From the human T2T-CHM13v2.0 reference genome, Homo sapiens: a stretch of DNA of 64,000 nt. The notes under the pieces are model-generated. The model did not search any database. It was not told the DNA's origin and saw nothing but the letters and a program-made list of their open reading frames with translations. How positions within the stretch are numbered: the first letter of the stretch is position 1; each line of letters opens with the position of its first letter. The DNA lies in NCBI GenBank assembly GCA_009914755.4, contig CP068257.2, positions 25,984,001 to 26,048,000 on the forward strand. Reading direction: 5' to 3'. Below, one piece after another: positions 128-64,000 of the stretch. The position numbers were made by a program, and so were the translations under genes.

Positions 128-1406
128 AGAAGGAATAACTTTTGTCCTGGAGCACCACACACCACCATGAAGGAGGTGAGGAGGGTGACTAAGACAGCTG
201 TAGCTAATTAGGGACAACCATATAGAGAAGTACTTGTGAAAAGATGCATGAATTAGACTTAGCTACACAGAGGAACAGAGAGAGGATCGCAAGAAATTGG
301 ATATGTATATGTGTGATTCAAAGAACTACAGAAAGTTAGAAAGGAAAAATGTTTAACTTAAATGAGGTAAGATACAGGCCAGATCACAAAAAGCACTGGA
401 TCCTATGAAAGGTGTTTGGGTTTTAATTACTAAGAATTTCAAACTGAGCCTAGAAATAATAGATTTTTTTCATGTTAGAATAGTCTGTCTTTATTACTAT
501 GAATGGGAGATTGGCTTAGCAGGAACAGAGAATGAAATGCTAAGGGCCTGAAGGAAGGAGATCAAGACAAAGAGGCAATAAGAAAGATCTAGGCTAAGAA
601 GCTAAACACAAGGTGAAGGGTGGGAATGCTTATGGGAGTACAAAATATTTCTAGGAGGAAGTTGTTTTAATGTGGGGGAAGAGGAAGAAGTTCAGAAACA
701 TGTCAAGGTATGTTGAGCTATGAGAAAACCACTTGAAGGAAATGCAAGAAGGGCAGGGTTTTCTTAATTCTCTTTTTTATTTTTCCTTTTGGTTTTATGC
801 ATTGGCTCAAGTGGGAAAAGTCCCAGGACTCTGGGTATTTCCACTTCCTACCCACACTCCTAGTTCCACTTTCACGGACTCTCTAAAAATCTAAAGAATT
901 AATCCCATCATGCTCTACTTTTCTATTTACATCCTTGCCACCAGCTCAAGTTTCCCAGATTCCTCTTTGCCTGGAATCTTAACCCTTACACGTGGATATG
1001 GATCTCTGAAATTCTAAACCACACTGGGCCCTTCAGATGTCCAACCTAAGCAAAATCTTCTACTTCCTCAAGCGTTCATCAAACATGCCCTTTACCGTCT
1101 TGTTCTAATTGAAATCTTTCTCATTTCTGTGGAAATGCTTTTTAACATTTGTTATTTTTTTCTCTCATAGTCTTTATAAGACTGGACATAGAGGTAGAGT
1201 AAGTTCCCTATTGTCTCTTGATATCATTTTACACCCGTTTGTTGCTCCCTTCTTTTTTCCAAAACTCCCAACTTTGAAACTCATACCCTTAGTCTATGCT
1301 ACCTATTACAACCCCTTGCTGTAATTGTTTACAGCTTTGGGCTCACATCGAACCCTCATTCCATGATGATTTCTCTACCTGCTTTATCTTCCAGCTTTTC
1401 AACATG

Positions 1407-3320
1407 ATAAAGATATATATAGTATATATATACATACACATATATATATCTTTGATAAAGATATATATACACACATATATCTTTGATAAAGATACATATA
1501 CACATATATCTTTGATAAATATATACACACATATATCTGATAAAGCTAGATATATACACATGTATATCTTTGATAAAGAGATATATACACACGTAAATCT
1601 TTGATAAAGATATATATACGCATATATATTTGATAAAGATATATATACGCATATACATCTTTGATAAAGACATATGTAGGCATATACGTCTTAGATAAAG
1701 ACATATATGTAGGCATATACGTCTTAGATAAAGACATATATGTAGGCATATACGTCTTAGATAAAGACATATATGTAGGCATATACGTCTTAGATAAAGA
1801 CATATATGTAGGCATATACGTCTTAAAGATATATATGTAGGCATATACGTCTTAAAGATATATATGTAGGCATATACGTCTTAAAGATATATATGTAGGC
1901 ATATACGTCTTAAAGATATATATGTAGGCATATACGTCTTAAAGATATATATGTAGGCATATACGTCTTAGATAAAGATATATATGTAGGCATATACGTC
2001 TTAGATAAAGATATATATGTAGGCATATACGTCTTAAAGATATATATGTAGGCATATACGTCTTAGATAAAGATATATATGTAGGCATATACGTCTTTGA
2101 TAAAGATATATATGTAGGCATATACGTCTTAGATAAAGATATATATGTAGGCATATACGTCTTAGATAAAGATATATATGTAGGCATATACGTCTTAGAT
2201 AAAGATATATATGTAGGCATATACGTCTTAGATAAAGATATATATGTAGGCATATACGTCTTAGATAAAGATATATATGTAGGCATATACGTCTTAGATA
2301 AAGATATATATGTAGGAATATACGTCTTTGATAAAGATATATATGTAGGCATATACGTCTTAGATAAAGATATATATGTAGGCATATACGTCTTAAAGAT
2401 ATATATGTAGGCATATACGTCTTAAAGATATATATGTAGGCATATACGTCTTAAAGATATATATGTAGGCATATACGTCTTAAAGATATATATGTAGGCA
2501 TATACGTCTTAGATAAAGATATATATGTGGGCATATACGTCTTAGATAAAGATATATATGTAGGCATATACGTCTTAGATAAAGATATATATGTAGGAAT
2601 ATACGTCTTTGATAAAGATATATATGTAGGCATATACGTCTTTGATAAAGATATATATGTAGGCATATACGTCTTAAAGATATATATGTAGGCATATACG
2701 TCTTAAAGATATATATGTAGGCATATACGTCTTAAAGATATATATGTAGGCATATACGTCTTAAAGATATATATGTAGGCATATACGTCTTAGATAAAGA
2801 TATATATGTAGGCATATACGTCTTAGATAAAGATATATATGTAGGCATATACGTCTTAGATAAAGATATATATGTAGGCATATACGTCTTAGATAAAGAT
2901 ATATATGTAGGCATATACGTCTTTGATAAAGATATATATGTAGGCATATACGTCTTAGATAAAGATATATATGTAGGCATATACGTCTTAGATAAAGATA
3001 TATATGTAGGCATATACGTCTTTGATAAAGATATATATGTAGGCATATACGTCTTTGATAAAGATATATATGTAGGCATATACGTCTTAGATAAAGATAT
3101 ATATGTAGGCATATACGTCTTAGATAAAGATATATATGTAGGCATATACGTCTTAGATAAAGATATATATGTAGGCATATACGTCTTTGATAAAGATATA
3201 TATGTAGGCATATACGTCTTTGATAAAGATATATATGTAGGCATATACGTCTTTGATAAAGATATATATGTAGGCATATATGTCTTTGATAAAGATATAT
3301 ATGTAGGCATATATATCTTT
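1407..3320. repeat. AT-rich minisatellite/VNTR of about 60 tandem units; basic units 33 bp (gtcttagataaagatatatatgtaggcatatac) and a 29-bp variant (cttaaagatatatatgtaggcatatacgt)
   Basis: Directly visible head-to-tail repetition. 1407-1690 holds degenerate ~30-33 bp units (…ctttgataaagatatatatacacacatatat…). 1690-3320 is highly homogeneous. Runs of the 29-bp unit (about 1810-1960, 2390-2500, 2670-2790) alternate with runs of the 33-bp unit, giving higher-order structure. Point variants recur (cttag/ctttg; taggcatatac/taggaatatac). The minus-strand ORFs with MPTYISLSKTY… periodicity are artefacts of this array. Confidence 0.95.
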
Positions 3321-3418
3321 CTAAGTGGCATTCATAGCAAAAAAAGATATATATATCTTTATATATATATATATATATAAAGATATATATATCTTTTTTT
3401 GCTATGAATGCCACTTAG
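3321..3418. repeat. Perfect 98-bp AT-rich palindrome: 40-bp arms around a central (TA)9
   Basis: Left arm 3321-3360 is ctaagtggcattcatagcaaaaaaagatatatatatcttt. Centre 3361-3378 is (ta)9. Right arm 3379-3418 is aaagatatatatatctttttttgctatgaatgccacttag, the exact reverse complement of the left arm. The inner arm sequence (aaagatatatat…) resembles the adjacent minisatellite unit. Confidence 0.95.
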
Positions 3419-3611
3419 AAATTTATTCTATTCTCTGAGACTCTCAGTTCATTGACTTTCTCTTCTATAACCACTTTGTTTTCCACTACAACTCTCATGT
3501 CTTATAATAGGCTTAGAACATTGTTTTTTAAACTAGGGAATTAAAAAGAAACAGTATAAAATATTTCCTGAAGGAACATAACGTCTAATAATGAATTATG
3601 CCAATGGATAA

Positions 3612-4917
3612 TTGGACAGATCAAGATGGATCAAAGACTTAACTCTAAGATATAATAGCATAAAAATTATAGAAGACAATATTAGAGAAACCCTTCTAAA
3701 CATTGGCTTAGGCAAAGACTTTATGATCAAGAACCCAAAAGCAAATGTAACAAAAATAAAGATAAATAGATGGGACTTAATTAAACTAAAAGGTTTCCAC
3801 ACAGCAAAACAAATAATCAGCAGAGTTAACAGGCAACCCACAAAGTGGGAGAAAATCTTCACAATCTATACATCTGACAAAGGATTAATATCCAGAATCT
3901 ACAAAGAACTCACACAAATCAGCAAGAAGGAAACAAACAATTCCATCAAAAAGTAGGCTAAGGACATGAATAGACAATTCTCAAATGAAGATATACAAAT
4001 GGCCAATGAGCCTATGGAAAAAAGCTCAACATCACTAATTATCAAGGAAATGTAAATCAAAACCACAATACAATACCACCTTACTCCTGCAAGAATGGCC
4101 ATAATCAAAAAATAATTAAAAAATAGATGCTGTCGTGGATATGATGAAAAGGGAACAATTTTACACTGTTGGTGGGAATGTAAACTAGTACAATCACTAT
4201 GGAAAACAGTGTGGAGATTCCTCAAAGAACTAAAAGTAGATCCACCATTTGATCCAGAAATCACACTACTAGGTATCTACCCAGCAGAAAGGAAGTCATT
4301 ATACAAAAAAGATAATTGTACAGGAATGTTTAGAGCAGAACAATTTGCAATTGCAAAAATATAGGATCAGCTCAAATGCCCATCAATGAACAAGTGGATA
4401 AAGAAAAGTGGATAAAGAAATGTGTGTGTCTGTGTGTATGTGTGTATATATATACGCACACATACACACACACATTTCTTTATACATATATATATATATA
4501 TACACACACATACACATACACACACATACACACACACACACACCATGGAATACTACTCAGTCATGCAAAAGAACAGAATAATGGCATTCAGAAAAACCTG
4601 GATGGAATTGGAGACTATTATTCTAAGTGATGTAACTCAGGGGGATGGAAAATCAAACATCATATCTTCTCACTCAAAAGTGGGAGCTAAGCTATGAGGA
4701 TGCAAAAGCATAAGAATGATACATTGAACTCTGTGGACTCGGGGGAAAGGGTGGGAGGGGTATGAGTGATAAAAGACTACACATTGGGTACAGTGTACAC
4801 TGCTCCAGTGATGGGTGCACCAAAAGCTCAGAAGTCACCACTAAATAACTTATTCATGTAACCAAACACCACCTGCTCCATAAAAAGTTATCAAAATAAA
4901 ACATAAATTAAAATAAG
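3612..4917 (+). mobile_element. L1 LINE 3' portion (ORF2 C-terminal region plus 3' UTR), older L1P/L1M-like, plus strand
   Basis: The ORF 3612-3956 translates to …WIKDL…GKDFM.KNPKA…KI..WDLIKLK.F.TAK…[11 protein letters not shown]…[13 protein letters not shown]…, matching the L1 ORF2 C-terminus. Downstream are the motifs [10 protein letters not shown]…IPFDPAIPLLGIYP and an L1 3' UTR ending in an A-rich tail near 4917. Confidence 0.85.
4418..4547. repeat. Compound (TG/CA)n and (TA)n microsatellite inside the L1 fragment
   Basis: The tract gtgtgtgtctgtgtgtatgtgtgtatatatatac…acacacacacacacacc sits exactly where L1 normally has aaatgtggtatatatacacaatggaatactac, so the short L1 motif appears to have been expanded. 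Confidence 0.85.
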
Positions 4918-5235: not shown

Positions 5236-5241
5236 TGCATA

Positions 5242-5669
<428 letters not shown>

Positions 5670-8244: not shown

Positions 8245-9178
8245 ATGGAGAGGACACCACTAATCATCAGGCAAATGCAAATCAAAACCACAGTGAGATA
8301 TACTGTCACACCAAACAGGATGGCTATTCTCAAAAAGACAAAAAATAACAAATGCTCATGAGGATGTCGAGAAATGGGAACTCTTATGCATTGTTGGTGG
8401 GAATGTAAACTAGTACAGCCATTATGAAGAACAGCTAAAGATTCCTTTAAAACTACCTATAGGACTACCATATGATCCAGCAATCCCACTACTGGGCATT
8501 TATTCAAAAGAAAGGAAGTCAGTATATTGAAAAGACATTTGTACCTTCGTGTTTATTGCAGCACTATTCACAATAGCCAAAGTATGGAATCTGCCAAGGT
8601 GGCCAGCTTTCAGATACATGGACTTTAAAATGTGGTACATATACACAATGGAATACTATTCAACCATAAAAAATGAACTCTTGTCATTTGCAGCAACATG
8701 GATGAAACTGGAAGAACTCTGGAAGGCATTATGTTAAGTAAAATAAGCGATGTTGTCACTAATGTGTGGAAGCTAAAAAAAATTTAAAAGATGACCTCAT
8801 AGAAGTAAAAATAGAAGAGAGGATATTAGAGGTTAGAAAATGTAGGGGAAAAAGAGATAGAGACAGATTTATTAAAGATTACAAAATTACAGCTAGATAA
8901 GAGGAATAATTTTTAGTGTTCTATAGCACCATAAAATGACTATAGTTAACAATAATATATTCCATAGTTTCAAATAGCTAGAAGGATGATACTTAATGTT
9001 CCCAACACTAAGAAACAATAAATGTTTGAGATGACAGATATGCCAGTTACTGTGATCTGTATATGTGTATATAGTGATCTGTAATGATCACTATACATGG
9101 CACGTATCACAACATGGCTGTGTACTTCATAAATATGTAAGATTACTATATGTTAAATTAAAAATAGATTTAAAAACT
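8245..9178 (+). mobile_element. Old L1 (L1M/L1P-type) 3' end: ORF2 C-terminus plus 3' UTR
   Basis: …caaatgcaaatcaaaaccacagtgagatatac…ttgttggtgggaatgtaaactagtacagccattatgaagaacag…gatccagcaatcccactactgggcatttattcaaaagaaa…atggaatactattcaaccataaaaaatgaa…taagtaaaataagc… This is followed by a divergent L1M-type 3' UTR ending in an A-rich stretch. Confidence 0.8.

Positions 9179-61139: not shown

Positions 61140-64000
<2,861 letters not shown>

What the first reader, a model, noticed from the sequence alone, without database searches (positions are those of the whole stretch)
1407..3320. Large AT-rich minisatellite (~60 units of 29/33 bp) with higher-order run structure
A 1.9 kb near-perfect tandem array of an AT-rich ~33-bp unit, with runs of a 29-bp deletion variant interspersed in blocks, dominates the first 3.5 kb. 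Arrays of AT-rich ~30-40 bp units are, from established knowledge, the class of sequence underlying rare folate-insensitive fragile sites (FRA16B: 33-bp AT-rich unit; FRA10B: ~42-bp AT-rich unit). They are typically highly length-polymorphic VNTRs that form secondary structures and stall replication. I do not recognise this unit as either of those named repeats. That is the reason it is worth checking rather than an identification. The high homogeneity of 1690-3320 against the degenerate 1407-1690 edge suggests recent or ongoing expansion and contraction. The block pattern of 29-bp versus 33-bp variants suggests unequal exchange of multi-unit segments.
Basis: partly seen in the sequence, partly recalled or inferred. 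Interest (0 to 1): 0.6.

Follow-up and report, generated by a model that had tools for sequence, protein, structure and literature searches.

The report
AT-rich hairpin minisatellite beside perfect palindrome
A real 1.9-kb, 60-unit AT-rich tandem repeat in primate non-coding DNA, built from hairpin-forming 29/33-bp units next to a perfect 104-bp palindrome, looks like an ordinary, recently expanded minisatellite and not a known fragile-site repeat.

Summary
Positions 1409-3320 contain 60 tandem units: 8 degenerate edge units and 52 nearly identical core units of 33 or 29 bp. The 29-bp units are strongly clustered, and a 281-bp, 9-unit block is duplicated in tandem with only 2 differences.

Each unit is a quasi-palindrome, AAAGA(TA)n..(TA)nTCTTT plus a GAT spacer. 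The array also ends directly against an exact 104-bp palindrome (3318-3421) that carries the same motif twice and is the most structure-prone sequence in the window.

The array most likely grew from a self-complementary compound microsatellite by slippage and unequal exchange of single and multi-unit blocks. The core was last homogenised roughly 1-3 My ago, with an upper bound near 9 My.

The fragile-site link is only a loose class resemblance. The unit is no closer to FRA16B than to plain (AT)n. The array is 73% AT against 91-95%. Its longest A/T run is 8 bp against 32. At 1.9 kb it is below the lengths reported for fragility.

Polymorphism and chromosomal position could not be tested, because no other copy was reachable. 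This is an ordinary, uncharacterised member of a known kind, and interest is low.

The parts
1409..1665 (.). Degenerate 5' edge of the array. It has 8 units of 25-48 bp of the ancestral type AAAGA(TA)n(CA)n(TA)nTCTTT+GAT. The core motif shifts stepwise from ACACAC to ACGCAT to GTAGGCAT.
   Evidence: 58-85% identity to the core consensus. The TRF (AT)n row covers 1413-1536.
1666..3320 (.). Homogeneous core with 52 units and the map FDDDGBBBBAABACAAAAAAEABBBBAHAECBBBBAAAACAACCAAACCCIJ. A is 33 bp ending TTAGAT, B is 29 bp, and C is 33 bp ending TTTGAT. It is 72.6% AT with one CpG per unit.
2234..2795 (.). Two tandem copies of a 281-bp, 9-unit higher-order block (2234-2514 and 2515-2795). They differ at 2 positions, 2248 A/G and 2362 A/T. 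Each carries the rare GGAATA unit and a run of four 29-bp units.
1796..1940 (.). First run of five 29-bp units. The other runs are at 2007-2035 (one unit), 2366-2481 (four) and 2647-2762 (four).
   Evidence: 14 units in 4 runs, with 0 of 20,000 permutations as clustered.
3258..3320 (.). The two 3' terminal units. They have ancestral-like ATATGTCTTT and ATATATCTTT in place of ATACGTCTT, so this is a non-homogenised 3' edge.
3318..3421 (.). Exact 104-bp palindrome with no spacer, overlapping the last 3 bases of the array. It has a (TA)n centre flanked on each side by AAAGATATATATATCTTT, then by less AT-rich arms, CTAAGTGGCATTCATAGC and its complement.
   Evidence: The sequence equals its reverse complement. 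It folds with a 50-bp stem at -49.9 kcal/mol, z = -17.7. It ranks 1 and 2 of 639 sliding windows. It is the best inverted repeat in the window. The arm occurs only here.

Best explanation
This is a non-coding, AT-rich, hairpin-prone minisatellite with no detectable gene, RNA-family or protein function.

**Origin (inferred).** It arose from a self-complementary compound microsatellite, AAAGA(TA)n(CA)n(TA)nTCTTT. Tandem duplication of that ~31-bp quasi-palindrome plus a GAT spacer started the array.

**Growth (shown by the anatomy, mechanism inferred).**
- A derived unit with the core GTAGGCATATACG, which created a CpG, then spread.
- Spread was by replication slippage and unequal sister-chromatid or allelic exchange, probably helped by hairpins formed by the single strands.
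- A 4-bp deletion variant (29 bp) and a T-to-A variant spread as blocks.
- The most recent visible event is a 281-bp, 9-unit tandem duplication.
- The edges kept older unit forms because exchange rarely reaches them.

**Palindrome (inferred).** The exact 104-bp palindrome at the 3' end is most simply a fold-back or template-switch inverted duplication of the original 3' flank across a (TA)n tract. The same window shows two more products of this kind of event.

**Consequences (inferred from established knowledge, not tested).**
- The array is probably a length-polymorphic VNTR and a local obstacle to replication.
- The palindrome is the likeliest site for cruciform or hairpin formation.
- At 1.9 kb and 73% AT the array is not expected to show as a cytogenetic fragile site.
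For: **Array and its structure**
- Array, unit types and counts.
- Clustering of the 29-bp units: 0 of 20,000 permutations.
- 281-bp duplication with 2 differences.

**Signs of recent homogenisation**
- 50 of 52 units retain the CpG, and there are only 1-2 singleton substitutions in 1625 bp.
- This gives about 1-3 My, with an upper bound near 9 My, under a star-like model.
- A graded series of ancestral unit forms is present at the 5' edge, and ancestral-like forms at the 3' edge.

**Hairpin potential**
- The + strand folds at -79.8 kcal/mol per 558 nt, z = -7.4.
- The - strand folds at -73.7 kcal/mol, z = -8.7.
- Array windows average -25.2 kcal/mol, against -13.2 for background of equal AT content.

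**Palindrome**
- It is exact and the most stable sequence in the window.
- Comparable inverted flank copies occur at other self-complementary microsatellites in the window.
- One is at 4398-4497 inside an L1, and the other L1 copy at about 8600-8663 lacks it.
- Another is at 31794-31923.

**No function found**
- Rfam gathering search gave 0 hits.
- Array ORFs have no homologues and no real Pfam domain.
Against: - No orthologous or allelic sequence was available. The order of events, which palindrome arm is the copy, and actual polymorphism are all inferred from one haplotype.
- Continuous gene conversion or homogenisation would produce the same picture as a recent burst, so the age figure is model-dependent.
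- Hairpin energies are in-silico single-strand predictions.
- The mutation rates and the twist-flexibility parameters are recalled from memory, not retrieved.
- Absence of function is absence of evidence only. Regulatory or chromatin roles cannot be tested with these tools.
Confidence: 0.8

Rival explanations
1. The locus is the normal or intermediate allele of a distamycin-A/BrdU-type rare fragile site. When expanded to many kilobases, the AT-rich hairpin-forming array would stall replication and exclude nucleosomes, as FRA16B and FRA10B do.
For: - The unit length is 33 bp and the array is AT-rich.
- Both strands form hairpins with energy per nucleotide about 83% of a FRA16B construct.
- It is the longest twist-flexibility island in the window.
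- The reviewed literature states that various AT-rich motifs may become fragile when expanded, and that several such rare sites remain unmapped (PMC9714581).
Against: - There is no specific sequence similarity to FRA16B beyond TA-richness.
- AT content is 73% against 91-95%. The longest A/T tract is 8 bp against 32. Only 56% of bases lie in A/T runs of 5 or more, against 96%, so there are far fewer long minor-groove ligand sites.
- At 1.9 kb the array is below the >5 kb reported for FRA10B and the tens of kb for FRA16B.
- This allele already has 60 copies, whereas normal FRA16B alleles have 7-12.
- The map position is unknown.
Confidence: 0.04
2. The array is an old, stable tandem repeat of fixed length. 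It stays homogeneous only through gene conversion and has no ongoing expansion or contraction.
For: Only one haplotype was seen. Homogeneity alone cannot separate a recent burst from continual conversion.
Against: - The 281-bp duplicate with only 2 differences, and the block spread of length variants, are direct traces of length-changing events.
- Retention of 50 of 52 CpGs argues against long residence without turnover.
- From established knowledge, long homogeneous arrays are usually VNTRs.
Confidence: 0.1
3. The palindrome, and perhaps the array, is transcribed and makes a hairpin RNA that acts as a miRNA-like or endo-siRNA precursor.
For: - As RNA or DNA it forms a perfect 50-bp stem.
- It gives sub-threshold Rfam matches to miRNA precursor families on both strands: mir-5014 at 54.9 bits, mir-3688 at 52.8 and mir-1277 at 51.2.
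Against: - Every match is far below the family's gathering score: 101, 84 and 81 bits respectively.
- The matches include unrelated plant families, hit both strands equally, and align mainly through compensatory pairs, so they reflect shape only.
- The gathering-threshold search found nothing.
- There are no expression data.
Confidence: 0.03
4. The array is protein-coding or part of an exon, because 33-bp units keep three frames open.
For: ORFs of up to 217 aa run through the array.
Against: - The open frames follow trivially from 33 = 3x11 together with the unit's sequence.
- The 29-bp units break every frame.
- No homologues were found among 5.8 billion proteins, and there are no exact records.
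- The only Pfam hit, ASK_PH, has no stretch that passes on its own and is an artefact of repetition.
Confidence: 0.01
5. The array or the palindrome is an assembly or cloning artefact.
For: Long tandem repeats and palindromes are error-prone in assembly, and only one sequence was available.
Against: - The array has an ordered internal variant map with graded edges, which collapse or mis-joining would not create.
- The palindrome arms are only 52 bp. Each continues into a different sequence, the array on the left and unique flank on the right. That is unlike fold-back read chimeras.
- Cloning in E. coli tends to delete palindromes, not create them (PMC7999016).
Confidence: 0.03

Closest known systems
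FRA16B 33-bp AT-rich minisatellite (16q22.1; unit ATATATTATATATTATATCTAATAATATATC/ATA)
   Same: - The unit length is 33 bp and the sequence is a non-coding AT-rich tandem array.
- Single strands are predicted to fold into arrays of hairpins of similar stability per nucleotide.
- It forms a twist-flexibility island.
   Different: - There is no homology: 25/35 at the best rotation, against 23/33 to plain (AT)n.
- AT content is 73% against 95.5%. The longest A/T tract is 8 bp against 32. TA+AT dinucleotides are 0.44 against 0.76.
- Unit self-complementarity is 20-22 of 33 against 26-28 of 33.
- This array has 60 copies (1.9 kb). FRA16B has 7-12 copies normally and up to 2000 when fragile.
- This array has one CpG per unit.
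FRA10B ~42-bp AT-rich minisatellite (10q25.2)
   Same: It is an AT-rich minisatellite with variant unit lengths within the array. That family is reported to show independent expansions of differing motifs.
   Different: - The unit is 29/33 bp, not about 42 bp.
- AT content is 73% against 91%.
- The length of 1.9 kb is below the >5 kb reported for fragility.
- The FRA10B unit sequence was not retrieved, so no direct alignment was made.
Palindromic AT-rich repeats (PATRR11, PATRR22, PATRR17, PATRR8)
   Same: The element at 3318-3421 is a spacer-less perfect palindrome with an AT-rich (TA)n centre. It is predicted to form a very stable hairpin or cruciform.
   Different: - It is 104 bp, not several hundred.
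- It is 81% AT, not above 90%.
- It belongs to the common class of about 180,000 human palindromes longer than 40 bp.
- There is no evidence of translocation involvement.
Ordinary human/primate VNTR minisatellites with higher-order variant structure
   Same: - It is a tandem array of 10-100-bp units with degenerate edges and a homogenised interior.
- It has interspersed variant units and multi-unit duplications.
   Different: Most classical hypervariable minisatellites are GC-rich. This one is AT-rich, has a quasi-palindromic unit, and sits directly against a palindrome built from the same motif.

Membership tests
FRA16B repeat | Unit homologous to ATATATTATATATTATATCTAATAATATATC/ATA | tested here: not met
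   The best rotation and strand give 25/35 identity, little above the unit's 23/33 identity to plain (AT)n.
FRA16B repeat | Located at 16q22.1 | not testable with these tools
   No primate reference was available, and scans of the available collections found no copy.
AT-rich-minisatellite rare fragile sites (FRA16B/FRA10B class) | Very high AT content (about 91% or more) with long uninterrupted A/T tracts that bind distamycin-type ligands | tested here: not met
   The array is 72.6% AT with a longest A/T run of 8 bp. A FRA16B construct is 95.5% AT with runs of 32 bp. FRA10B is 91% AT.
AT-rich-minisatellite rare fragile sites (FRA16B/FRA10B class) | Expanded allele of several kb to tens of kb (FRA10B above 5 kb; FRA16B up to 2000 copies) | tested here: not met
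   This allele is 1.9 kb with 60 units. Other alleles could not be examined.
AT-rich-minisatellite rare fragile sites (FRA16B/FRA10B class) | Single strands form stable secondary structure able to stall replication | tested here: met
   This was tested in silico only. The + strand gives z = -7.4 and the - strand z = -8.7. Energy is -0.143 kcal/mol per nt against -0.172 for FRA16B. It is about 12 kcal/mol per 200 nt more stable than AT-matched background.
AT-rich-minisatellite rare fragile sites (FRA16B/FRA10B class) | Cytogenetic gap or break inducible by distamycin A, berenil or BrdU | not testable with these tools
   This needs cytogenetics on carriers.
VNTR (variable number tandem repeat) | Tandem array of units of 7 bp or more | tested here: met
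VNTR (variable number tandem repeat) | Copy number varies among individuals | not testable with these tools
   No second haplotype was found. The motif is absent from the VNTR catalogue supplements held here. Internal traces of length change make variation likely but do not show it.
PATRR (palindromic AT-rich repeat) | Near-perfect palindrome without a spacer | tested here: met
   3318-3421 equals its reverse complement.
PATRR (palindromic AT-rich repeat) | Several hundred bp long and above 90% AT | tested here: not met
   It is 104 bp and 80.8% AT.
Rfam miRNA precursor families (mir-3688, mir-1277, mir-4536, mir-5014 and others) | Score at or above the family's gathering threshold | tested here: not met
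   Scores are 47-55 bits against thresholds of 76-101. The matches fall on both strands and rest on compensatory pairs only.

The most novel reading that the evidence does not exclude
The array and its abutting perfect palindrome are the unexpanded or intermediate allele of one of the still-unmapped distamycin/BrdU-inducible rare fragile sites. Candidates include FRA8E, FRA11I, FRA16E, FRA17A and FRA12C. Expansion of the hairpin-forming 33-bp unit beyond about 5 kb would produce fragility, and the palindrome would act as the preferred break or rearrangement point. This would show that a 73%-AT, CpG-bearing quasi-palindromic unit can make a fragile site.
Probability: 0.03. Interest if true: 0.7.

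Novelty: new member of a known kind. Interest (0 to 1): 0.2.

Why it matters
- If the array is polymorphic, it is one more AT-rich, structure-forming VNTR that short reads genotype poorly. It could then be a local source of structural variation or replication trouble.
- The anatomy is a clear worked example of how a self-complementary compound microsatellite can seed two things: a minisatellite, by direct duplication, and a perfect palindrome, by inverted duplication. Three such inverted-flank events occur in one 64-kb window.
- It does not open a new question. Nothing links it to a gene, a disease or a mapped fragile site.
- A practical caution: 33-bp units keep three reading frames open, and the palindrome imitates miRNA precursors. 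Automated annotation could mislabel both.

Tried and rejected
**Searches for other copies (other haplotypes or species), all empty**
- A 21-mer from the unit in metagenome, prokaryote-genome and viral contigs.
- A 26-mer from the palindrome arm in metagenome and genome contigs.
- Exact-protein look-ups of three ORFs in or beside the array.
- A homology search with the 199-aa array ORF against 5.8 billion proteins.

**Literature**
- Full-text searches for 17-mers of the unit on both strands found 0 papers.
- Supplements of three VNTR catalogue papers were either not held or contained no occurrence.

**Mapping**
- Rfam at gathering thresholds found nothing in the window, so no landmark RNA gene was available.

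**Readings considered and rejected**
- Coding. The Pfam ASK_PH hit is a repeat artefact.
- miRNA family membership.
- Transposon origin of the flanks: the flanks 130-1407 and 3421-3560 and the non-(TA) part of the palindrome arm have no other copy in the window. Without a repeat library this only excludes a locally repeated element.
- Derivation of the unit from the L1 segment GGATAAAGAAAATGTGG: considered because of the shared GATAAAGA, but dropped because the array's 5' flank does not resemble L1 (reading).
Full report
**Setting.** The window is primate DNA. An Alu fragment fills 1-130. L1 ORF2 and 3' sequence starts near 3560, and another Alu lies at about 5240-5500 (read directly, recognised from established knowledge of these repeats). 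GC content is about 35%. No Rfam family reaches its threshold anywhere in the 64 kb. Long ORFs outside the array show only a weak reverse-transcriptase remnant. This is AT-rich, repeat-rich sequence with no sign of genes.

- There are 8 degenerate units at 1409-1665. They are 25-48 bp long and 58-85% identical to the core consensus.
- There are 52 core units at 1666-3320, giving 60 units in total.
- The core consists of 21 units of AAAGATATATATGTAGGCATATACGTCTTAGAT (33 bp), 13 units of the same lacking AGAT (29 bp), and 8 units ending TTTGAT. There are also a few minor variants.
- The unit map is FDDDGBBBBAABACAAAAAAEABBBBAHAECBBBBAAAACAACCAAACCCIJ.
- The fourteen 29-bp units fall in four runs of 5, 1, 4 and 4. 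None of 20,000 permutations is that clustered.
- Self-identity is 0.84 at lag 33 and rises to 99-100% locally at lag 281.
- The segments 2234-2514 and 2515-2795 are two tandem copies of a 9-unit block. They differ at only two positions.

- The unit is a quasi-palindrome. AAAGATATAT...ATATACGTCTT(T) pairs with itself around GTAGGC, and with its neighbour around the GAT spacer.
- The ancestral form at the 5' edge, AAAGATATATATACACACATATATCTTT, shows this more clearly.
- Both strands are predicted to fold into regular hairpin arrays. The + strand gives -79.8 kcal/mol per 558 nt, z = -7.4. The - strand gives -73.7 kcal/mol, z = -8.7.
- In 200-nt sliding windows the array averages -25.2 kcal/mol, against -13.2 for other windows with at least 68% AT.
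- The array ends directly against 3318-3421, a 104-bp sequence exactly equal to its own reverse complement. It folds with a 50-bp stem and 4-nt loop at -49.9 kcal/mol, z = -17.7.
- Windows containing the palindrome rank first and second of 639 in the window. It is by far the best inverted repeat in the 64 kb.
- Its centre is (TA)n, flanked on each side by AAAGATATATATATCTTT, which is the seed motif of the array. Outside that lies a less AT-rich arm found nowhere else in the window.

**How it probably arose.** The 5' edge holds a graded series of unit forms, with the core motif going from ACACAC to ACGCAT to GTAGGCAT. The two 3' terminal units revert to ATATGTC and ATATATC. Both ends therefore keep older states, and the interior is a homogenised derived form. 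That is the expected outcome of slippage and unequal exchange, which rarely involve edge units (established knowledge of tandem-repeat evolution).

The derived core created a CpG. 50 of 52 units still have it, and only 1-2 singleton substitutions exist in 1625 bp. I assumed a star-like model, a rate of 0.5e-9 per site per year, and roughly a 12-fold higher rate at CpG. These rates come from general knowledge and were not retrieved. On those assumptions the core was last homogenised about 1-3 My ago, with an upper bound near 9 My. Continuous conversion would look the same, so this figure dates the last homogenisation, not the origin.

For the palindrome, the right arm runs into unique 3' flank. 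The left arm is wedged between the last unit and the (TA)n centre. The simplest reading is therefore a fold-back or template-switch inverted duplication of the original flank. This is inference, but the window supplies two independent parallels.
- Inside an L1 fragment, 4398-4497 is a (TG)n(TA)n(CA)n tract carrying an inverted copy of its own 5' flank (ATAAAGAAATGTGTG / CACACATTTCTTTAT). A second L1 copy at about 8600-8663 has the plain sequence.
- At 31794-31923 a (TA)n tract is bracketed by GTCTTACAGCATTGAAAAGCTATAT and its near-complement. It folds at -32.1 kcal/mol, z = -9.0.

**Comparison with fragile-site minisatellites.** The published FRA16B unit is ATATATTATATATTATATCTAATAATATATC/ATA. 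Normal alleles have 7-12 copies and fragile alleles up to 2000 (PMC2875025). FRA10B has a unit of about 42 bp, is 91% AT, and is fragile above 5 kb (PMC9714581).

Across all rotations and both strands, this unit matches FRA16B at 25 of 35 aligned columns. It matches plain (AT)n at 23 of 33, so the resemblance is only shared TA-richness.

| Measure | This array | FRA16B construct | Source |
|---|---|---|---|
| AT content | 72.6% | 95.5% | |
| Longest A/T tract | 8 bp | 32 bp | |
| Bases in A/T runs of 5 or more | 56% | 96% | |
| TA+AT dinucleotides | 0.44 | 0.76 | |
| Folding energy per nt (kcal/mol) | -0.143 | -0.172 | |
| Mean twist flexibility | 13.6 | 16.1 | |

The FRA16B construct is my own, alternating the two published unit variants. 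The twist-flexibility values use dinucleotide parameters recalled from Sarai et al. as used in TwistFlex. With those values the array sits at about the conventional 13.7 threshold across 1374-3410.

So the array behaves partly like that class, in hairpin formation and flexibility. It fails the class features that could be tested: extreme AT content, long A/T tracts and expanded length. It is not homologous. Cytogenetic fragility, map position and population length variation could not be tested.

**The palindrome against known classes.** PATRRs are several hundred bp, more than 90% AT, near-perfect and without a spacer (PMC4940405 and PMC7999016). The palindrome here is perfect and has no spacer, but it is 104 bp and 81% AT. 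The human genome holds about 180,000 near-perfect spacer-less palindromes longer than 40 bp and 718 longer than 200 bp. It therefore belongs to a common class.

Relaxed Rfam searches give hits to miRNA precursor families on both strands, at 47-55 bits. Thresholds for those families are 76-101 bits, and the hits include plant families. The alignments rest on compensatory pairs, so they reflect shape and not membership.

**Other readings rejected.** The array is open in three frames because 33 = 3x11, giving ORFs of up to 217 aa.
- The 29-bp units break every frame.
- No homologue exists among 5.8 billion proteins.
- The only Pfam hit has no stretch that passes on its own.
- An assembly artefact is unlikely, given the ordered variant map and the short palindrome arms that continue into different sequences.

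**What could not be done.** Every route to a second copy failed.
- DNA scans of three collections with two patterns.
- Exact-protein look-ups.
- A protein homology search.
- Full-text searches for the motif.
- VNTR catalogue supplements.

Polymorphism, orthology and chromosomal position remain open, and these are the decisive tests.

**Verdict.** This is a real, well-described array with a correct structural reading. The fragile-site association is a loose analogy that fails the testable membership criteria. It is an uncharacterised member of a known kind, the AT-rich hairpin-forming minisatellite. It has a tidy origin story and an adjacent perfect palindrome. Interest is low, at about 0.2.

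Noticed in passing
window 3318-3421: An exact 104-bp spacer-less palindrome directly abuts the array and carries the array's seed motif AAAGA(TA)nTCTTT twice. It is the most stable predicted single-strand structure in the 64 kb.
   Followed up: yes
window 4392-4545: Inside an L1 ORF2 3' fragment, the L1 segment ...GGATAAAGAAAATGTGGTACATATACACC... has become a (TG)n(TA)n(CA)n tract. The tract contains an inverted copy of its own 5' flank and forms a 76% palindrome at 4398-4497. There is also a 14-bp tandem duplication at 4392-4424. Another L1 copy at about 8600-8663 lacks all of this.
   Followed up: partly
window 31794-31923: A (TA)n tract is bracketed by an inverted copy of its flank, GTCTTACAGCATTGAAAAGCTATAT / ATATAGCTTTTCAACACTGTAAGAC. 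It folds at -32.1 kcal/mol with z = -9.0. This is the third (TA)n-centred inverted flank duplication in the window.
   Followed up: partly
window 1356-3414, both strands: Because the unit is 33 = 3x11 bp, three reading frames stay open through runs of 33-bp units. This gives ORFs of 126-217 aa, one with an ATG in every unit. They have no homologues and give a spurious Pfam ASK_PH hit, so they are a trap for automatic gene callers.
   Followed up: yes
window 3317-3422 and array units: Relaxed Rfam searches give many sub-threshold hits to miRNA precursor families on both strands, including mir-5014, mir-3688, mir-1277, mir-4536, mir-3149 and plant MIRs. These families appear to model AT-rich perfect hairpins, so the hits show shape only.
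   Followed up: yes
window 1666-3257: Each core unit carries one CpG (ACGTC), giving 50 CpGs in a 73%-AT array. The two 3' terminal units have TG or TA at that position. Methylation of this periodic CpG array could be examined in long-read data.
   Followed up: partly
window 63530-63560: There is a pure A31 tract, probably the tail of a retroelement.
   Followed up: no
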